Origin: Faecalibaculum rodentium | GTDB lineage: Bacteria > Bacillota_I > Bacilli_A > Erysipelotrichales > Erysipelotrichaceae | Reading direction: 5' to 3' | Assembly: GCF_001564455.1 (NCBI RefSeq) | Contig: NZ_CP011391.1 | Span: 2,091,391-2,115,390, forward strand | Length of the DNA: 24,000 nucleotides | Shown: positions 5,859 through 14,055 of the stretch, piece after piece | Position numbering within the stretch: position 1 is the first letter of the stretch | How the letters are laid out: every line of letters starts with the position of its first letter | The notes under the pieces: generated by a model | Seen by the model: the letters and a program-made list of their open reading frames with translations, nothing else | Told to the model about the DNA's origin: nothing | Database searches by the model: none | Translations under genes and position numbers: made by a program

Positions 5859-6954
5859 CTAAGGCACTAAAGGCTTGAATATCCGGATTTTTCTTAGTAG
5901 ATTGATTAATAAGATAGAAATAAAAATAATTAACCAAGGACCAATGAGTCGCCACCAAATTGACGTTTGACTGATGTCCATGAAATGCAATAAACCTAGA
6001 AGAACTAGCTGATGAAGTAAATAGATACCAAAAGTATATGGCCTGAACCATTCAGAAAATCTAATAATTGCTAATTGAATTCTATTTTTTCTATTTTGGC
6101 ACTTGTTATAGATCTGTCGAATCAGTATAAAAACAGCAATAGACTGAAGATAGCAAGGGAGATTGTAATAGCCTTTGAAAGTCTCTACAATGTGATTCGC
6201 ATTTATTGATAAGTAGTAAGTTGGAATTAGTTGCATAATAAACCCTATTGTACCCAATATATAAAGTACAATTCTTGTTCTTTTTCTTATGCTGTAATTA
6301 CCAATTAAATATCCTATTATAAAATATAGATAATAGTTTGCAGATACAGGCATCAACTGAGATACAGAGATTTCAGAAAAAATGTATTACAAATAAATAC
6401 AGCTACAACATTCAGCAAGAATCCCAAAACTGCAAGATATTCAAAAACATGCTTCCTGGATGCATTGGATATATTGGAGAATAACGGAACTGTTATGCAG
6501 ATAGTAAAATAAGGAATGAAAAACCAATATACACTCACTAAGTTTCCATTAATTAGACCATCAATTATTACAGGGAAAGTAATTTCTAAGAGAGGAAACC
6601 ATTCTAATACTATACTTTGATAATAAACGCCTAATACACTCCAAAAAAAATAAGGAATTAATACTTTCATTGCCCGATTCCTCAAGAATCTCTTTGTTCC
6701 ATTCCTTTCTATACTTGGAATCAAAGTTATACCGGAAATCATAAAAAAATTGGAACAGCCCAATAGAGAACTGTTTCAATTATATTTGCTGTCATCCAAT
6801 ATCGAGCTTTCGGATCAAAATCCCAGAAGCATGTATTCACATGCAGATATACAACAGCTATAGCAGCTGCTACACTTAAAAAATCCACAGTCTTATCAAA
6901 ATTTGTGAGGTGTTGGTTCAGCATCTTATCCTTATAATATTCCATAAAAATCAC
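5859..6954 (-). pseudogene. Acyltransferase family 3 (O-acyl/acetyltransferase) gene split into three frames
   Basis: Fragments 6954..6739, 6763..6353 and 6356..5859 (71+136+165 aa) together make one typical 10-TM acyltransferase_3 protein of about 370 aa. Adding one T at the A7/T7 run (6743..6749) restores the conserved AVPIFFMISGITL. Adding one T at the A6/T6 run (6377..6382) joins the last two pieces as ..NTFFSEISVSQLMPVSANYY... Confidence 0.7.
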
Positions 6955-8797: not shown

Positions 8798-11692
8798 TCA
8801 CCAACTCTCCACCACCATCTCCAGCAGCTCCGCAGCTGCCACTTTATCCTTCACCCGAATCAGATGGTTCCAGGCATCCTCCGGACCTAACAGGTTGATG
8901 CCGCCATCCCACACCAGTTCCCTGTCGATCACCGCAAACGGATCAACCGGATCATCCAGCTCCCGGACGGAAAAACCTGCTTCTTTCAACCGGCGGATCG
9001 CTGCATCCTTGGTCCCTTCCCAGCCATCATCGGCAGTAGTGAAAATGACAACGTCCACTTCATTCCTGCCTTCCATAGCCTGAAGCACTTTCTCTGCCCT
9101 GGAAAGAGTGATGGCAGGACTGGAAATTACGACTTCCTTTCTGGACTCCCGGAGATCCTGGAGGAAGGCATCCAGATAGTTGTCCAGGTCGAATATCGCA
9201 TTGACGGTCTGGGATACCGCAGGATCTGTTGTCTGCAGCTGCCAGGCCGCCTTTTTGTATGTCTTCAGACGCTTTCGATACATCCCCTGGAATACCGGAA
9301 TCCGCCGGTCAATGTAGTCATATACCTGCACTGTCTTCTTTCCGGGGTAGTCCCTGTTCAGCCGGCCGAGGAACTGCAGAAGCAGCCCTTCAAAGGCAAT
9401 GGGTGATACAAGAAACAGGGTATCGAGCCGGGGATAGCTGAATCCTTCTCCGATTTTCTGGCCTGTGGCAATGATGAGAACTGATTCGTTGTCCGGAACT
9501 CTCTTCAGCTGACTCAGCTGTTCCCTGTTCTCTTTCTCAGAGTTGTCTCCATAAACCAGGAACAGATGATCTGCACTTCCTTCCAGGTGTCTGGCCAGCG
9601 TGGCTGCATGTGATTTCAGCCTTACGAATATGGCACAGGTATGACCTTCTGCAAGGGCCTGACGGACATCACCTGCAATCAGTTCGTTTCTCACAGGATC
9701 CTGTGCAATGTATTCATACAGCTCGTAGATGGCTGGCTTTTCTTCCCGCAGGCAGAGGCTGCGGGTAAACCGCGGGATAAGGAGCCTCTGCAGGTTCTGG
9801 CTCTTCGCCTTATCCATGGCACTGTAGGTGTGCCGAATATCGCCAATGAACATGGTGATAAGAGGATCCAGCTTGTCCGCCCGTTTCGGTGTGGCTGTCA
9901 TGCCGTAGAGATACGCAGGAGAAATCCGGTCCAGGATCTTTCGAAAGGTCGGAGATGCTGCATGGTGGCATTCATCCACGATGACCATTCCATAGCGGTC
10001 AGGAATGGAATCCATGTTTCCCAGTGTCTGTGCCATGGCGATATCCACAAGGCCTGTCATGGTGTTTTTGGATCCCTTCAGGACACCGATGTGGCTTTTT
10101 CGCCTTCTGGTTTTCCCAGCCTTTGTCCGATACTCCGGAAGGGGTTCATCAAATTTCAAAAACTCCTCCAGCTCTTGCTGCCACTGTTCCAGAAGTGCGG
10201 TCTTTTCAATGAGAATCAGCGTATTGACCTTCCTGTGCGCTATCAGGCTGGCTGCCACAACGGTTTTTCCGAAGGAAGTGGCGGCAGAGAGAATTCCATA
10301 GTCGTATTTCAGCAGTTCTTCCTGCGCTGCCTGCTGTTCCTGTCGGAGCGAACCCTGGAATTCAACGCGAAGCCATGCTCCCTTTTGCCGTTTGTCTCTG
10401 ATCCGATAGTCGATGCGGCTGCTTTCCAGCCGGTGTTTCAGCGTATCCCGTATTCCACGGGGCAGCCGGATATAGCCGTCCACATCGCTGCCGATATACA
10501 GGATGCGGGGTGTGTTCCAGTTGGAATATCCAAAGCGTGTGTTCTCATACCAGGCGGGATTTGCCATGGCTGCCAGATTCCGAATCTGATTCTGCAGTCT
10601 GGGATGGAGTGTGAGGGCATCTACATAGATGCCATCGGCGAGGATGATGGTCAGAGTTCCATAGACATCTTCGGGATGGAATTCACTGTTCTGCTTCCAG
10701 GGATCCGGGCGATACTGGCTAGTCATAGCCAGTCTTCCCGTCTCAACCGCAAGTTCCTGGCCCCAGGTTTGGATATACTGCTCCATTTGTTCTCTGGTGA
10801 GCTTCTGACACTCTTTCATGGCCTGCCACTGGTCGGGGATGGCATTCCAGTGTTCATCCACAAACGCTGTGTTGCCTTCTGTCAGCGAAGCACCGTGGAG
10901 GGGCAGTGCGATGAGACTGCCGAGATCCTCTGTCTGGTCCTGTGCGGGAAACATCCGGTCGTAACACTGGTAGGACCTGAGAGGAACCAGCTGGCTGCCT
11001 TTGTTCAGCAGCAGCATACCAAACTGCCTGGCTGTGGAAGCTTTGACAGGTTCCTTGAAAAAGATCCAGACATGAGATCCCTTTCCGGAACGGGATCTTT
11101 CCACAAGGCAGTTGATTCCCAGCTGGGTGCAGATCATCCGCAGGGTTTCAGCTTCCTTCCTCGTCTGGGCTGGATCAGAGGCTTCGCTGTGAGCGTCAAA
11201 GTCAAAAACCAGAAACCGGCAGGTCCCATCAGGATGCAGTGGATAGATTCCAACAGGATTTGAGGACCCCAGCAGATGCCGGAGCAGGATTTTAGGGTTG
11301 ATTGCCTCCCAGCCCCTGTGCAGACACTTGCTGCAGGGAGATTTTGGATTCGTGTGTTTAGGACAGACGCCGGCATTCCAGCGATACAGACACTGGGGAT
11401 ACCATCCTCCGTTTTTGCCTCGTTTGGCGTACACATCCATGCGGCCCCAGAACATAGAAAAGAAGAATCGGACCATGTATTCGGTGATCCATGGAAACTG
11501 GATCCGGGCTCCCTGATCCGGATCTGTATCAGGGGCTGATGGCATGGGCACTGGCAAGGATATATCATGAGACTCAAGCTGTTTTCTTAATTGTCTGTTT
11601 TCCTGTTCGAGACTTCGATATTTCTTTGCGAGTTCAATCAATGCCTGTTGAAGATATTCCATGGCTTTATGATAACAAGTTTGTGTCGTCAT
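8798..11692 (-). CDS. AEP (archaeo-eukaryotic primase)-like domain fused to an SF2 DExH helicase, with a C-terminal PLD-like-looking domain; conflict/defence-type protein
   Basis: N-terminal coiled coil (LEQENRQLRKQLE). Cys/His cluster CLYRWNAGVCPKHTNPKSPCSKCLH. AEP motifs FLVFDFDAH (DxD), SGKGSHVWIFF (sGxGxH) and LIALPLHG. Helicase motifs TSFGKTV (I), VIVDECHH (II), GMTATPKR (III) and QFLGRLNR (VI). C-terminal ISSPAIT..VVIFTT..FAVIDRELVWDGGINLLG. The start is ambiguous: track 11731 is TTG, and the ATGs at 11692 and 11662 both lack an SD. Confidence 0.85.
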   Translation of the reverse strand: MTTQTCYHKAMEYLQQALIELAKKYRSLEQENRQLRKQLESHDISLPVPMPSAPDTDPDQGARIQFPWITEYMVRFFFSMFWGRMDVYAKRGKNGGWYPQCLYRWNAGVCPKHTNPKSPCSKCLHRGWEAINPKILLRHLLGSSNPVGIYPLHPDGTCRFLVFDFDAHSEASDPAQTRKEAETLRMICTQLGINCLVERSRSGKGSHVWIFFKEPVKASTARQFGMLLLNKGSQLVPLRSYQCYDRMFPAQDQTEDLGSLIALPLHGASLTEGNTAFVDEHWNAIPDQWQAMKECQKLTREQMEQYIQTWGQELAVETGRLAMTSQYRPDPWKQNSEFHPEDVYGTLTIILADGIYVDALTLHPRLQNQIRNLAAMANPAWYENTRFGYSNWNTPRILYIGSDVDGYIRLPRGIRDTLKHRLESSRIDYRIRDKRQKGAWLRVEFQGSLRQEQQAAQEELLKYDYGILSAATSFGKTVVAASLIAHRKVNTLILIEKTALLEQWQQELEEFLKFDEPLPEYRTKAGKTRRRKSHIGVLKGSKNTMTGLVDIAMAQTLGNMDSIPDRYGMVIVDECHHAASPTFRKILDRISPAYLYGMTATPKRADKLDPLITMFIGDIRHTYSAMDKAKSQNLQRLLIPRFTRSLCLREEKPAIYELYEYIAQDPVRNELIAGDVRQALAEGHTCAIFVRLKSHAATLARHLEGSADHLFLVYGDNSEKENREQLSQLKRVPDNESVLIIATGQKIGEGFSYPRLDTLFLVSPIAFEGLLLQFLGRLNRDYPGKKTVQVYDYIDRRIPVFQGMYRKRLKTYKKAAWQLQTTDPAVSQTVNAIFDLDNYLDAFLQDLRESRKEVVISSPAITLSRAEKVLQAMEGRNEVDVVIFTTADDGWEGTKDAAIRRLKEAGFSVRELDDPVDPFAVIDRELVWDGGINLLGPEDAWNHLIRVKDKVAAAELLEMVVESW

Positions 11693-11762
11693 AATGCAAG
11701 AAAGCCAAACCCTATGCCCTGTCCGGAGCAAAATGCCGGTTCTTTCTCAGGTGTCTGAATCT

Positions 11763-11771: not shown

Positions 11772-11892
11772 TCAGGAAGACTCAGGAAAAATTGCTGCAA
11801 CAGTAACGTGTGGATGCCTGTCGCCTGCTTTGGATAAAGCGGGTGAATCATGGCGTATCCCTGCTTCTGTGCAGAGCAGGAAAGAACAGTCC

Positions 11893-12123
11893 ATGATTTT
11901 AGATGATTTGAACTTTGACGATATTGATCTGGATGTTTTGTTTGGGCGTGATTATGATGGCAAGGAATTTGACATGACGGAATATGTCGGTGTATGGAAT
12001 GGATATGATGTGTATCTCGGGTATGCAGATGGAGAAGATCATGTCCTGCTGGTCAAGGGGAAACGGGCGTGGTATCCCAACAGTATGGACCTCGATGAGA
12101 TCAAATACATCTTTGATCTCTGA
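11893..12123 (+). CDS. Small highly acidic hypothetical protein (76 aa)
   Basis: ATG at 11893 is preceded by AGGAAAG. MILDDLNFDDIDLDVLFGRDYDGKEFDMTEYVGVWNGYDVYLGYADGEDHVLLVKGKRAWYPNSMDLDEIKYIFDL has 19 D/E against 6 K/R. It is followed by the hairpin terminator at 12210..12253. The track start at 11830 is TTG. No family was recognised. Confidence 0.45.
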   Translation: MILDDLNFDDIDLDVLFGRDYDGKEFDMTEYVGVWNGYDVYLGYADGEDHVLLVKGKRAWYPNSMDLDEIKYIFDL

Positions 12124-12253: not shown

Positions 12254-12506
12254 ATGAATCATTCAATTCACCTGCTTAAGGAAGTTCAAAATGAGATTCT
12301 GGCGGCAACAGAGATAGCTGTTTCAATCACAGTCATCAAAGTGTCAGGTTACCAAGCCTTCCATTTCATGATAAGAAGCTGCTATAAGAAATCCAAAAGC
12401 TGGAAACTGCTCGATTTATTGTTGGCAAACGACCAGTAGTTCGGCATATGGCCGGAGTCCACCCCATTGCGAATGAGCAGATTTCATTTCAATCGTTTCA
12501 GAAGTG

Positions 12507-12923
12507 TCAGGAATCCGATTTTCGTTCGAGCACAATATCATGATCCAGATCCAGACGACTGCAGTCAATGATTGGGAGCTTCACTTCCGATATTGTGTAG
12601 GATGTAATAGTCTGGACTGCCTCACGTACGTAAGGGAATGCAACAGCCATGAATCTTTTAATATGAGAGTTGATAGCATCAATATCATCTTCTTCAAAAT
12701 CCCGAATCAGTCCCTCATCCTGCAGGGAAAAAATACTGGTAAATTCCATTGGAACTTCCTTGTCATGCTTTCCGCACAGCAAAATCTGGATCCCAACCGA
12801 GAGAAGGCGGTTTTTCCTTCTGTAATCATAACCGGTCACCCCTATTACAATTTCTTCGTAAGGATGTACTTCAGAGAGTTCATATTCAAGCTTTTCAAGC
12901 TTAAAATCCAAATAAGTAAACAT
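12507..12923 (-). CDS. SecB-like chaperone (third gene of a toxin-antitoxin-chaperone cassette)
   Basis: 138 aa. AFPYVREAVQTITSYTISEVKLPIID matches the conserved SecB C-terminal core as I recall it (E. coli SecB [28 protein letters not shown]; M. tuberculosis Rv1957 LYPYIREYV). The N-terminal beta-strand-like LDFKLEKLEYEL and LLSVGIQILLCG resemble the SecB fold pattern. AGGGGGG RBS; the ATG lies 9 nt after the antitoxin TAG. Confidence 0.65.
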   Translation of the reverse strand: MFTYLDFKLEKLEYELSEVHPYEEIVIGVTGYDYRRKNRLLSVGIQILLCGKHDKEVPMEFTSIFSLQDEGLIRDFEEDDIDAINSHIKRFMAVAFPYVREAVQTITSYTISEVKLPIIDCSRLDLDHDIVLERKSDS

Positions 12924-12932
12924 ATTCCCCCC

Positions 12933-13403
12933 CTACGCCTGCAGAAACACAGCTTGATTCTTAGCTCTGTCCACTGTCTCGACAGGTACGTATACATCAA
13001 TCGCAGATGGTCTGCTTTGCCAGCTGTTTTCTTCAGATTCCCATTTCCCGATATCATAACAGTCAAGGGCATAGGCTCGAATCTTGTGACATTCTCTCGC
13101 TTCATCTTTTCGCTTAGGTTCAGTAACGGCGCTCTTCCTGAACTGGTACAACTCGCTCACCAGCTCGGGGTGTCGATCCAGCAGGTAAAGAGTCCTGCTG
13201 GCGGCTCCTTTGATTGGGTTGGCCCCCTGTTCCCATTTTTCAATGGTTTTTTCGCTTAGCCCCAGCATCTTTGCCATCATTCTCTGTGAAAGTCCCAGTT
13301 TCTGCCGAAGGGCTTTTGCAAAACTATTGGTCGTAATCTCTTCTGTGTTTGTAAACTCATTTTTACAAACAGGCATCTTTTTCAAAGCTTCTATATCAAA
13401 CAT
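12933..13403 (-). CDS. XRE/HigA-type helix-turn-helix antitoxin with a roughly 70-aa C-terminal extension
   Basis: 156 aa. HTH core FAKALRQKLGLSQRMMAKMLGLSEKTIEKWEQGANPIKGAASRTLYLLDRHPELV. This is followed by an aromatic/charged tail (..YALDCYDIGKWESEENSWQSRPSAIDVYVPVE..). Strong RBS AGAGGAGAG upstream of the ATG at 13403. Confidence 0.8.
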   Translation of the reverse strand: MFDIEALKKMPVCKNEFTNTEEITTNSFAKALRQKLGLSQRMMAKMLGLSEKTIEKWEQGANPIKGAASRTLYLLDRHPELVSELYQFRKSAVTEPKRKDEARECHKIRAYALDCYDIGKWESEENSWQSRPSAIDVYVPVETVDRAKNQAVFLQA

Positions 13404-13421
13404 ATTCTCTCCTCTAAATAT

Positions 13422-13442
13422 CTTCAGGTCTTTGACCTGAAG
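13422..13442. promoter_or_regulatory. Perfect 9-bp inverted repeat between toxin and antitoxin genes
   Basis: CTTCAGGTC-TTT-GACCTGAAG, read directly. It ends 18 nt upstream of the antitoxin ATG, just 5' of its SD on the mRNA. Confidence 0.4.
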
Positions 13443-13495
13443 CAGTCAATCCACATCTTTCACGCCAGGGTTCCACTATTTTTTTCCGAAATCGG

Positions 13496-13921
13496 TCATT
13501 CTTTTTCACTGGCTTCCCGGACTTTCTCCAGGTTGCTGACCAATTTACGAAGCTGATTCTTCTCGTTGGATGTCAAATCAGTCTTCGGCTTCTTTCCTGC
13601 ATGTTTATGATAAATATGACAGATAAATGAAGTCTCGCAAAGAGCTGCAACCAGAATGATCCTGTATCCTCCACGTTTGCCACTATTGCGCTTTGGATCT
13701 TTGCAGCGCATTTTATAAACAGCCAGATCCGAATATTTCTCTGACTGAATCAATCTGCTTCCAGAACGATCATTCTCGAGATCATCCGCTACATCCTGAA
13801 GTATCTGATTGTATCCTGACTGCCCAAGTCCCGTTCTCTTCAGATCTTTCTCCAGGTCAAACCCATAATCCTTCAGTTCCCGCAGGAGATCAGGACTGTC
13901 AAAAGTATCAGTCAGATTCAT
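13496..13921 (-). CDS. RelE/ParE-superfamily toxin, HigB-2-like
   Basis: 141 aa. The core AVYKMRCKDPKRNSGKRGGYRIILVA...ICHIYHKHAGKKPKTDLTSNEKNQLRKLV resembles the ..KGKGKRGGSRIIYY...IYGKNEMSDL..QRKQL pattern I recall for Vibrio HigB-2-type toxins. It is the first gene of the cassette. GGGGATGG RBS. Confidence 0.7.
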   Translation of the reverse strand: MNLTDTFDSPDLLRELKDYGFDLEKDLKRTGLGQSGYNQILQDVADDLENDRSGSRLIQSEKYSDLAVYKMRCKDPKRNSGKRGGYRIILVAALCETSFICHIYHKHAGKKPKTDLTSNEKNQLRKLVSNLEKVREASEKE

Positions 13922-13937
13922 AATCCATCCCCAATCG

Positions 13938-13968
13938 CCCTATTTAGTAGGGTATTCAAATCATACCA
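13938..13968 (-). promoter_or_regulatory. Candidate TAC promoter (extended -10 TGGTATGAT) with adjacent small inverted repeat
   Basis: On the minus strand, TGGTATGAT (13968..13960) is followed immediately by CCCTA-N5-TAGGG (13952..13938), about 17 nt upstream of the toxin ATG. Motif-level evidence only, and the -35 is weak. Confidence 0.35.
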
Positions 13969-14010: not shown

Positions 14011-14055
14011 AAAAAGCCTAGCGCTTTACTCCTGAAGCACCAGGCTCATTTTCTG
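14011..14055 (-). terminator. Rho-independent terminator-like hairpin downstream of the FMN reductase (repeat copy R2)
   Basis: AAAAAGCCTAGCGCTT-TACTCCTG-AAGCACCAGGCT; on the minus strand the stem is followed by TTTTTG. It shares the blocks AAAAAGCCT, GCGCTTT and GAAGCACCAGGCT with R1 at 12210..12253. Confidence 0.55.

What the first reader, a model, noticed from the sequence alone, without database searches (positions are those of the whole stretch)
12507..13921. Tripartite toxin - antitoxin - SecB-like chaperone (TAC) module in a probable Gram-positive anaerobe
The gene order matches the M. tuberculosis Rv1955-Rv1957 HigB1-HigA1-SecB-like TAC paradigm. It runs from a HigB-2/RelE-like toxin (GKRGGYRII core), to an XRE-HTH antitoxin with a roughly 70-aa aromatic/charged C-terminal extension (the place where chaperone-addiction segments lie in known TACs), to a 138-aa protein with the SecB FPY[AV]RE core. 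The antitoxin stop and the chaperone ATG are 9 nt apart. Monoderm Firmicutes do not normally encode SecB, so a SecB-fold protein here is most simply explained as a dedicated antitoxin chaperone. The toxin also has an N-terminal extension of about 30 aa relative to classic HigB-2.
Basis: partly seen in the sequence, partly recalled or inferred. Interest (0 to 1): 0.8.

Follow-up and report, generated by a model that had tools for sequence, protein, structure and literature searches.

The report
Toxin-antitoxin-chaperone operon in Faecalibaculum rodentium
Three adjacent minus-strand genes in the mouse-gut Firmicute Faecalibaculum rodentium look like a toxin-antitoxin module whose antitoxin depends on its own SecB-like chaperone; this kind of system is already known, though this divergent Firmicute branch is not annotated as one.

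Summary
Three minus-strand genes lie at 13921..13496 (141 aa), 13403..12933 (156 aa) and 12923..12507 (138 aa), with a 9-nt gap between the last two.

- **Toxin.** It is a HigB-2/RelE relative: Pfam RelE E 1e-4, family profile against V. cholerae HigB-2 E 4e-4, and HigB2 is the top fold match.
- **Antitoxin.** It has a HigA-2/MqsA-type HTH (profile against HigA-2 E 1.7e-8). It continues about 70 residues past the point where HigA-2 ends. That tail is variable, carries aromatic residues and ends in a small residue.
- **Third protein.** It has no Pfam or NCBIfam hit. Its AlphaFold model (pLDDT 85) matches E. coli SecB and the M. tuberculosis TAC chaperone Rv1957 best. Nineteen of 24 family members hit the PADLOC model of CmdC (PD-T4-9_C), a validated TAC chaperone.

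The toxin-antitoxin-chaperone order is kept in relatives with only 26-37% chaperone identity, all from Bacillota where the source is named.

I therefore support the TAC reading, but as a new member of a known kind. TACs were already reported in seven phyla, including a Firmicute. Toxicity, chaperone dependence and any anti-phage role are untested.

The parts
14011..14047 (-). Terminator-like hairpin plus T-run ending the upstream FMN-reductase gene. It isolates the operon from read-through transcription.
   Evidence: GAGCCTGG...CTAGGCTTTTT read directly from the sequence. Conserved in L001 and L002. The consensus terminator scan did not flag it.
13960..13968 (-). Candidate extended -10 element (TGGTATGAT) of the operon promoter.
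   Evidence: Read from the sequence. Conserved as TGnTAnGAT in L001 and L002. The consensus promoter scan did not call it, so this is inference only.
13938..13952 (-). Palindrome CCCTA-N5-TAGGG between the -10 element and the ribosome-binding site. Candidate operator for the HTH antitoxin.
   Evidence: Both arms are invariant in the window, L001 and L002. Its function is inferred.
13496..13921 (-). Toxin gene, 141 aa. HigB-2/RelE-family putative ribosome-dependent mRNA endonuclease with a conserved helical N-terminal extension of about 25-30 aa.
   Evidence: Pfam RelE PF06296 E 1e-4, 22.8 bits, below the gathering score of 27. Family profile against PDB HigB-2 E 4e-4. AF2 model pLDDT 78, with top fold hit HigB2 8a0x_C at E 5e-3 and probability 0.99. 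Invariant residues include Y69, K70, R72, K74, D75, R78, Y86, R87, H102, Y104 and H105.
13422..13442 (.). Perfect 9-bp inverted repeat (CTTCAGGTC AAA GACCTGAAG) in the 92-nt toxin-antitoxin gap, 19 nt upstream of the antitoxin ATG. Role unknown; it could be an operator or an RNA hairpin.
   Evidence: Identical in L001 but not conserved in L002.
13140..13403 (-). Antitoxin residues 1-88: a conserved N-terminal segment followed by a HigA-2/MqsA-type XRE helix-turn-helix domain.
   Evidence: Pfam MqsA_antitoxin 35 bits (gathering score 30) and HTH_3 34.5 bits (gathering score 23), both. Profile against HigA-2 5jaa E 1.7e-8. dN/dS 0.02.
12933..13139 (-). Antitoxin residues 89-156 plus the stop codon: a variable C-terminal extension that is the candidate chaperone-addiction (ChAD) segment. 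It contains Y111, Y116, W121, W128, Y138 and F153 and ends in FLQA.
   Evidence: It extends beyond the C-terminal end of HigA-2. It is 16-24% identical between loci where the HTH is 55-86% identical. The C-terminal residue is A, C or V in all 13 antitoxins compared, from 14 loci (L004 and L012 are one contig).
12924..12932 (-). 9-nt spacer GGGGGGAAT between the antitoxin stop and the chaperone ATG. It looks like a ribosome-binding site and implies coupled expression.
   Evidence: The corresponding gap is 8-24 nt in relatives.
12507..12923 (-). SecB-like chaperone gene, 138 aa. The FPYVRE motif lies at nt 12621-12638 and L116-P117 is nearly invariant in the family.
   Evidence: AF2 pLDDT 85, pTM 0.80, four strands plus a long helix. 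Foldseek top hits are SecB 1qyn (E 4e-4) and Rv1957 5mtw (E 7e-4). PADLOC PD-T4-9_C E 1.9e-4 for this protein; 19 of 24 family members hit it, best E 6.5e-10. No Pfam or NCBIfam hit.

Best explanation
This is a tripartite type II toxin-antitoxin-chaperone (TAC) operon on the chromosome of Faecalibaculum rodentium (Erysipelotrichaceae, Bacillota).

**Shown by computation**
- Gene 1 encodes a HigB-2/RelE-family protein.
- Gene 2 encodes a HigA-2-type HTH antitoxin carrying a variable C-terminal tail of about 70 aa with aromatic residues.
- Gene 3, 9 nt downstream of gene 2, encodes a protein with the SecB fold that is homologous to the CmdC chaperone.
- The three genes stay linked in distant Bacillota relatives.

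**Inferred by analogy with M. tuberculosis HigBA1-SecB(TA), E. coli HigBAC and CmdTAC**
1. The tail acts as a chaperone-addiction segment that makes the free antitoxin unstable. A possible route is a C-terminal ClpX-type degron, here ...FLQA.
2. A tetramer of the chaperone binds the aromatic residues of the tail and protects the antitoxin.
3. The protected antitoxin can then neutralise the toxin and repress the operon through its HTH.
4. If the chaperone is titrated away by stress-unfolded proteins or a phage protein, the antitoxin is lost.
5. The freed toxin then cleaves ribosome-bound mRNA and arrests growth.
For: **Anatomy.**

**Organism.**

**Toxin.** Pfam RelE E 1e-4. PDB HigB-2 E 4e-4 with the family profile. 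The top fold hit is HigB2, followed by the ribosome-dependent RNases Cami1 and M. tuberculosis HigB1.

**Antitoxin.** Pfam HTH_3 and MqsA_antitoxin are above their gathering scores. HigA-2 matches at E 1.7e-8 and the alignment ends at HigA-2's C-terminus. The tail is variable, carries aromatic residues and ends in a small residue.

**Chaperone.** SecB fold, with 1qyn and 5mtw as top hits at probability 1.00. PADLOC PD-T4-9_C (CmdC) is hit by 19 of 24 family members, best E 6.5e-10. PD-T4-9's third gene is a validated SecB-like TAC chaperone (PMC9519451). The FPYVRE...LP region aligns to E. coli SecB FPYARE...AP.

**Conserved linkage.** The toxin-antitoxin-chaperone order is kept in L004/L005, L006, L008, L012, L016, L017, L018 and L019 at 26-37% chaperone identity.

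**Selection.** All three genes are under purifying selection: dN/dS is 0.17 for the toxin, 0.02 for the HTH, 0.34 for the tail and 0.13-0.14 for the chaperone.

**Literature precedent.** TAC antitoxins carry variable C-terminal ChAD extensions (PMC5105189). ChAD recognition depends on aromatic residues, and known degrons end in Val-Ala or Ala-Ala (bioRxiv 10.1101/2024.02.24.581848).
Against: - No experiment exists. Toxicity, neutralisation and chaperone dependence are all unshown.
- The chaperone has no Pfam SecB or NCBIfam hit. Neither it nor its family profile matches any PDB SecB sequence at E <= 10. hhalign against E. coli SecB gives only 43% probability over 31 residues.
- The toxin's matches are all modest (E 1e-4 to 5e-3), and the Pfam score is below the gathering threshold.
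- The window's own antitoxin ends in Gln-Ala, which is not a classical hydrophobic-Ala ClpX motif.
- The 92-nt toxin-antitoxin gap is longer than in relatives and in most TACs.
- The tail's aromatic fraction (0.088) is no higher than that of the HTH part (0.08) in this protein.
Confidence: 0.8

Rival explanations
1. This is an ordinary two-component HigB-2/HigA-2-type TA pair. The co-transcribed SecB-fold protein has another job, such as a general holdase or secretion helper, and the antitoxin does not need it.
For: SecB-like proteins do occur alone in Firmicutes with unknown function (PMC3581621). The fold search also returned the streptococcal orphan proteins 2o2a and 2hng. No binding or dependence has been demonstrated.
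Against: The third gene stays immediately downstream of the antitoxin (8-24 nt) across loci down to 26% identity. The antitoxin has a long extension that two-component HigA-2 lacks. The family's closest sequence relatives are CmdC TAC chaperones. No solitary copy appeared among the loci examined.
Confidence: 0.08
2. The module is a decayed or domesticated remnant. The toxin is inactive, and the HTH protein now acts only as a transcriptional regulator.
For: The toxin's similarity to RelE/HigB-2 is weak. Catalytic residues could not be mapped with confidence. The toxin-antitoxin gap is unusually long at 92 nt. One relative, L013, has a truncated antitoxin.
Against: All three ORFs are intact, present on about 230-310 public contigs, and under purifying selection at dN/dS 0.02-0.34. 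Basic, His and Tyr residues are invariant across the toxin family.
Confidence: 0.07
3. The third protein is not a chaperone. It is a second neutralising or sensing component that acts directly on the toxin, as the accessory factors of some three-gene TA-like defence systems do.
For: Three-gene TA-like defence systems with non-chaperone third components exist, for example PD-lambda-2 (PMC9519451). In the Absicoccus and Faecalicoccus loci the third slot is filled by an unrelated-looking protein.
Against: The SecB fold and the CmdC homology point specifically to the chaperone role. The antitoxin tail and the chaperone are the two fastest-diverging parts, and the antitoxin-chaperone pair appears to move by recombination as a unit. 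That pattern fits an interacting pair.
Confidence: 0.05

Closest known systems
M. tuberculosis TAC: HigB1-HigA1-SecB(TA), Rv1955-Rv1956-Rv1957
   Same: The gene order is toxin, antitoxin, chaperone. The toxin belongs to the RelE superfamily. The HTH antitoxin has a C-terminal extension. The chaperone has the SecB fold, and 5mtw is among the top fold hits. The antitoxin ends in a small aliphatic residue, Val-Ala in HigA1.
   Different: The toxin and antitoxin are of the HigB-2/HigA-2 (PF06296 / MqsA-like HTH) branch, not HigB1/HigA1. M. tuberculosis HigB1 is only a weak fold hit at E 0.2. The chaperone is 15-18% identical to Rv1957 and undetectable with Pfam SecB. The tail is about 70 aa against about 45 aa, and the host is a monoderm Firmicute.
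V. cholerae HigB-2/HigA-2 two-component TA system (PDB 5ja8, 5jaa, 8a0x)
   Same: These are the closest solved relatives of both the toxin and the antitoxin HTH. The toxin gene also precedes the antitoxin gene.
   Different: HigA-2 ends right after the HTH and has no chaperone gene. Bordes et al. made HigBA2 chaperone-dependent only by grafting the M. tuberculosis ChAD onto HigA2 (PMC5105189). The locus here looks like a natural version of that construct. The toxin here also has about 25-30 extra N-terminal residues.
E. coli CmdTAC (PD-T4-9) and HigBAC/MqsRAC anti-phage TAC systems
   Same: The chaperone family here is sequence-homologous to CmdC: 19 of 24 members hit the PD-T4-9_C model, best E 6.5e-10. 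The tripartite logic is the same. The locus sits at the edge of a variable region next to a conflict-system gene.
   Different: The CmdT toxin is an mRNA ADP-ribosyltransferase and CmdA is unrelated to this antitoxin. The E. coli systems are prophage-borne, and no prophage genes are seen in this window. Anti-phage activity is untested here, and no relatives were found in viral contigs.
Canonical export chaperone SecB (E. coli, 1qyn)
   Same: The fold is the same, and the FPY[AV]RE...(L/A)P segment aligns.
   Different: There is no Pfam PF02556 match and only about 10% identity. The gene sits in a TA operon, and the host has no outer membrane. A role in Sec export is not expected and was not tested.

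Membership tests
TAC (toxin-antitoxin-chaperone) systems | Three adjacent co-oriented genes in the order toxin, antitoxin, chaperone, with the chaperone immediately after the antitoxin. | tested here: met
   13921..13496, 13403..12933 and 12923..12507, all on the minus strand, with a 9-nt antitoxin-chaperone gap. The same order is found in L001, L004/L005, L006, L008, L012 and L016-L019.
TAC (toxin-antitoxin-chaperone) systems | The third protein has the SecB fold. | tested here: met
   AF2 model pLDDT 85 and pTM 0.80. Foldseek PDB top hits are 1qyn SecB and 5mtw Rv1957, E 4e-4 to 2e-3, probability 1.00, TM about 0.55.
TAC (toxin-antitoxin-chaperone) systems | The third protein matches the Pfam SecB domain PF02556, the criterion used in early TAC surveys. 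| tested here: not met
   No hit at E <= 1 for this protein. Only 8 of 24 family members hit it weakly, best E 0.002. Homology to the SecB-like CmdC is nevertheless supported by PADLOC PD-T4-9_C, hit by 19 of 24 members, best E 6.5e-10.
TAC (toxin-antitoxin-chaperone) systems | The antitoxin is homologous to a two-component antitoxin but carries a variable C-terminal extension (ChAD). | tested here: met
   The HigA-2 alignment (E 1.7e-8) ends at HigA-2's C-terminus, which corresponds to residue about 85 here. Residues 86-156 are extra. The tail is 16-24% identical between loci where the HTH is 55-86% identical.
TAC (toxin-antitoxin-chaperone) systems | The chaperone binds the ChAD through aromatic residues, and the antitoxin needs the chaperone to neutralise the toxin. 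| not testable with these tools
   Aromatic residues are present in the tail: Y111, Y116, W121, W128, Y138 and F153. This needs co-expression or binding assays.
TAC (toxin-antitoxin-chaperone) systems | A C-terminal ClpX-type degron on the antitoxin. This is present in M. tuberculosis HigA1 and CmdA but not in all TACs. | tested here: inconclusive
   The last residue is A in 9, C in 3 and V in 1 of the 13 antitoxins compared, usually with a hydrophobic or aromatic residue 1-3 positions before it. The window's own antitoxin ends in FLQA. The precedent is described.
RelE/ParE superfamily, HigB-2 branch (Pfam PF06296) | A sequence match to PF06296 at the gathering score. | tested here: not met
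   22.8 bits against a gathering score of 27, E 1e-4. Five of 7 family members hit it, none better than E 1e-4.
RelE/ParE superfamily, HigB-2 branch (Pfam PF06296) | Homology or fold similarity to solved HigB-2. | tested here: met
   The family profile matches 5ja8, 8a0x and 9tv9 HigB-2 at E about 4e-4 over about 86 residues, including GKRGG(S/Y)RII. The top Foldseek hit is 8a0x_C, E 5e-3, probability 0.99.
RelE/ParE superfamily, HigB-2 branch (Pfam PF06296) | Ribosome-dependent mRNA endonuclease activity. | not testable with these tools
   There are only conserved K, R, H and Y residues and weak fold hits to the ribosome-bound RNases Cami1 and M. tuberculosis HigB1.
MqsA antitoxin family (the public annotation of WP_067559085.1) | An N-terminal zinc-binding domain with two CxxCG motifs, in addition to the C-terminal HTH. 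| tested here: not met
   Only profile positions 65-130 of 131 (Pfam) and 62-126 of 127 (TIGR03830, below its cut-off) match. No CxxC motif is present in the sequence. The HTH is closer to HigA-2.

The most novel reading that the evidence does not exclude
The antitoxin-tail-plus-chaperone pair may be a swappable sensing cassette of an anti-phage TAC in a Gram-positive gut commensal.

- Between near-identical strains the toxin gene is unchanged (dS 0.011), while the antitoxin and chaperone genes come from a diverged allele (dS 0.4-0.7).
- In Absicoccus and Faecalicoccus the same toxin-antitoxin scaffold is followed by a 137-140 aa protein with no detectable similarity to SecB-like chaperones.

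That third protein could be a second, non-SecB or hyper-divergent class of addiction chaperone.
Probability: 0.15. Interest if true: 0.6.

Novelty: new member of a known kind. Interest (0 to 1): 0.35.

Why it matters
TAC systems are a recognised and recently active topic, covering chaperone addiction and phage sensing by SecB-like chaperones. They have been characterised in Mycobacterium and Proteobacteria.

This locus shows that a HigB-2/HigA-2-type TA pair is naturally coupled to a SecB-like chaperone in Erysipelotrichaceae and other Bacilli. The chaperone family is divergent enough to escape Pfam and NCBIfam, and it is annotated only as "hypothetical" (39 clusters, none with a Pfam domain).

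The practical value is better annotation, and a small Gram-positive model for testing whether chaperone addiction and chaperone-based phage sensing work the same way in monoderm gut bacteria. It does not change the concept.

Tried and rejected
- **Direct sequence searches for the third protein.** Pfam, NCBIfam and direct PDB sequence searches found nothing. A 24-sequence family profile against PDB sequences also found nothing at E <= 10.
- **hhalign against E. coli SecB.** Only the FPYxRE...LP stretch aligned, at 43% probability, so I treat it as weak support only.
- **Modelling a complex.** I tried a chaperone tetramer linked to the antitoxin tail.
- **Genome and viral scans.** The chaperone was not found in GTDB representative genomes. 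Chaperone and toxin scans of viral contigs were negative, so there is no evidence of phage carriage.
- **Positive selection on the tail.** Tested and rejected: dN/dS is 0.34, which is relaxed or fast evolution but not above 1.
- **Consensus scans.** The promoter and terminator scan gave nothing above the shuffle expectation. The promoter and operator features I list are read by eye and by conservation only.
- **MqsA membership.** Considered and rejected, because there is no zinc-binding domain.
- **Canonical SecB export role.** Considered and rejected as the primary reading, given the operon context and the monoderm host.
Full report
**1. Observation**

The finding's coordinates hold three co-oriented minus-strand ORFs.
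- A 141-aa ORF at 13921..13496 contains GKRGGYRII.
- A 156-aa ORF at 13403..12933 follows.
- A 138-aa ORF at 12923..12507 contains FPYVRE (nt 12621-12638).

The antitoxin stop and the third ATG are 9 nt apart, with the spacer GGGGGGAAT at 12924-12932. The toxin-antitoxin gap is 92 nt. It contains a perfect 9-bp inverted repeat at 13422-13442.

All three proteins are exact matches to Faecalibaculum rodentium records. WP_067559086.1 is annotated as hypothetical or RelE. WP_067559085.1 is annotated as an HTH protein or "MqsA family antitoxin". WP_067559083.1 is annotated as hypothetical. The 12-14 kb stretch has about 44% G+C against 52-60% for the housekeeping side.

**2. The third protein**

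Pfam, NCBIfam and PDB sequence searches gave nothing. The family is rare. It has 6 close clusters among 5.8 billion proteins. It has 22 representatives at E <= 1e-3 among 1.84 billion. A profile search returned 39 clusters, none with a Pfam domain and the few that carry a name called "hypothetical".

An AlphaFold model built from 6 sequences has pLDDT 85 and pTM 0.80. It shows four antiparallel strands followed by a long helix. Foldseek against the PDB puts E. coli SecB (1qyn, E 4e-4) and the M. tuberculosis TAC chaperone Rv1957 bound to a ChAD peptide (5mtw, E 7e-4) on top. Both have probability 1.00, TM about 0.55 and 10-18% identity. H. influenzae SecB and the streptococcal SecB-fold orphans 2o2a and 2hng follow.

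At sequence level the protein hits the PADLOC model PD-T4-9_C at E 1.9e-4. Across the family, 19 of 24 members hit it, best E 6.5e-10. PD-T4-9's third gene is the SecB-like chaperone CmdC of the experimentally validated CmdTAC system (PMC9519451).

Eight of 24 members also touch Pfam SecB weakly. hhalign aligns FPYVRE...KLPIIDC with E. coli FPYARE...NLAPVNF, but only at 43% probability. R100 and P117 are invariant in the family, and P97 and L116 nearly so. In Rv1957 the residues just after helix alpha1 (L154, P155, P156, L157) form the pocket for ChAD Tyr114 (PMC6377645). That these positions correspond is my inference.

**3. The toxin**

- Pfam RelE PF06296 scores E 1e-4, 22.8 bits, below the gathering score of 27.
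- Five of 7 family members hit PF06296 and 4 hit Gp49.
- A 7-sequence family profile hits V. cholerae HigB-2 structures at E about 4e-4 over about 86 residues.
- The AF2 model (pLDDT 78) has HigB2 8a0x_C as its only good fold hit, at E 5e-3 and probability 0.99. The RelE-like ribosome-dependent RNase Cami1 and M. tuberculosis HigB1 follow.

The extra N-terminal helices are conserved across the family (FD..LL..LK.[YF]GFDL.KDLK), so the extension is real. Invariant K, R, H and Y residues (K70, R72, K74, R78, R87, H102, Y104, H105) are compatible with RelE-type chemistry. They were not mapped onto a catalytic site.

**4. The antitoxin**

HTH_3 and the HTH half of MqsA_antitoxin pass their Pfam gathering scores. 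There is no zinc-binding domain, so it is not a true MqsA. The best solved relative is V. cholerae HigA-2, at E 1.7e-8. The alignment stops at HigA-2's C-terminus, which corresponds to residue about 85 here. Residues about 86-156 are therefore an extension.

Across loci the HTH part is 55-86% identical to the window's, while the tail is 16-24% identical. The tail carries Y111, Y116, W121, W128, Y138 and F153. In the window's protein the aromatic fraction of the tail is no higher than in the HTH part.

In the 13 antitoxins compared, the last residue is Ala in 9, Cys in 3 and Val in 1. A hydrophobic or aromatic residue usually lies 1-3 positions before it: FLQA, YFA, YLA, MLA, FSA, IRA, LDA, FVC, LCC, YWC, WAV. 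Known TAC antitoxins end in Val-Ala (HigA1) or Ala-Ala (CmdA), and both act as ClpX degrons. A degron here is plausible but unproven.

**5. Conservation of the module**

The toxin-antitoxin-chaperone order recurs with chaperones only 26-37% identical to the window's. It is seen in Erysipelotrichaceae bacterium RD49 (L004/L012), several metagenome contigs (L006, L008, L010) and Bacilli, Bacillota and Staphylococcaceae MAGs (L016-L019). Every relative from a named source is from Bacillota.

Comparing the window with close relatives gives these dN/dS values:

| Segment | dN/dS |
|---|---|
| Toxin | 0.17 |
| Antitoxin HTH | 0.02 |
| Antitoxin tail | 0.34 |
| Chaperone | 0.13-0.14 |

All parts are therefore under purifying selection, and the tail is the least constrained. 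The alleles are mosaic. The window and L001 share an almost identical toxin gene (dS 0.011), but their antitoxin and chaperone genes are diverged (dS 0.4-0.7). L001's antitoxin-chaperone pair is essentially the allele found in L002. This implies recombination between the toxin gene and the antitoxin-chaperone pair.

**6. Context**

Upstream lie housekeeping genes: a PFL-like glycyl-radical enzyme, its activase, a transaldolase and an FMN reductase. The FMN-reductase gene ends in a hairpin plus T-run at 14011-14047. A conserved TGGTATGAT (13960-13968) and a conserved CCCTA-N5-TAGGG palindrome (13938-13952) precede the toxin gene. I read them as a candidate promoter and operator, which is inference.

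Synteny with a related strain ends 27 bp after the chaperone stop, at 12480. Beyond that point the window has a 977-aa AEP-TOTE PrimPol-helicase, whereas the relative has DUF2513, an HTH protein and a helicase. The module therefore sits on the edge of a variable region that may be defence-related. No prophage genes appear in the window, and no relatives were found in viral contigs.

**7. Mechanism**

What is shown is gene order, the three folds or homologies, the tail and the conserved linkage. The mechanism is inferred by analogy (PMC5105189, PMC6377645, PMC8165232, bioRxiv 10.1101/2024.02.24.581848).
1. The tail destabilises the free antitoxin.
2. A chaperone tetramer binds the tail's aromatic residues and shields it.
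3. The stabilised antitoxin neutralises the HigB-2-like toxin and represses the operon.
4. Loss or titration of the chaperone, by unfolded proteins or a phage protein, frees the toxin.
5. The toxin cleaves mRNA on the ribosome.

My confidence that this is a functional TAC is about 0.8. An anti-phage role is only suggested by the neighbourhood and by precedent.

**8. Comparison and novelty**

TACs were already catalogued in seven phyla, including the Firmicute Caldicellulosiruptor. They have HigA, MqsA, HicB, "MqsA-like" and "HTH-like" antitoxin classes (PMC3581621). V. cholerae HigBA2 is a classical two-component system that became chaperone-dependent only after a ChAD was grafted onto it artificially (PMC5105189). 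The present locus is a natural HigBA2-type TAC with a chaperone clade too divergent for Pfam.

That makes it a new member of a known kind. It is useful for annotation and as a Gram-positive model, but it is not conceptually new. No paper linking F. rodentium to a TAC was found.

**9. Limits**

Noticed in passing
window 8798-11731 (-): A 977-aa protein lies directly downstream of the TAC operon. It has an AEP-TOTE primase-polymerase domain (PF22548, E 7.5e-75) fused to a ResIII/DEAD helicase. It also hits the PADLOC PrimPol, PbeA and type IV restriction models. It is probably a conflict or defence gene.
   Followed up: partly
window 12480 (synteny break); L001:6444 onward: Synteny with a related Faecalibaculum contig runs from the housekeeping genes through the TAC and stops 27 bp after the chaperone stop. 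The relative then carries DUF2513, an HTH protein and an AAA_11/UvrD-type helicase instead of the AEP-TOTE gene. The TAC therefore borders a variable island.
   Followed up: partly
window 12507-13921 vs L001:5002-6417 and L002:479-1890: The alleles are mosaic. The toxin gene is nearly identical between the window and L001 (dS 0.011), while the antitoxin and chaperone genes are diverged (dS 0.4-0.7). L001's antitoxin-chaperone pair is essentially the allele found in L002. Recombination appears to exchange the antitoxin-chaperone pair separately from the toxin.
   Followed up: partly
L014:2946-3368 (Absicoccus intestinalis); L015:2984-3397 (Faecalicoccus MAG): In these loci, homologous toxin-antitoxin pairs with long aromatic antitoxin tails are followed by a 137-140 aa third ORF. 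The two ORFs are 35% identical to each other. They show no detectable similarity to the SecB-like family here, to Pfam or to PADLOC. They may be a second protein family in the chaperone slot.
   Followed up: partly
window 13422-13442: A perfect 9-bp inverted repeat with a 3-nt loop lies in the 92-nt toxin-antitoxin gap, 19 nt before the antitoxin ATG. It is identical in L001 but absent from L002, and relatives have gaps of only 9-12 nt. It could be an internal operator or an RNA hairpin.
   Followed up: partly
window 13346-13371: A perfect 10-bp inverted repeat (TGTTTGTAAA N6 TTTACAAACA) lies inside the 5' coding region of the antitoxin gene. Its significance is unknown.
   Followed up: no
window 5859-6763 (-): An Acyl_transf_3 acyltransferase is split into two adjacent ORFs of 136 aa and 165 aa, covering profile positions 51-175 and 188-324. 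This looks like a frameshifted or pseudogenised gene. It lies in a low-G+C (31-40%) polysaccharide biosynthesis cluster.
   Followed up: no
window 11830-12123 (+): A 97-aa acidic ORF with no Pfam hit lies in the 775-bp gap between the chaperone gene and the AEP-TOTE gene, on the opposite strand. It is unclear whether it is a real gene.
   Followed up: no
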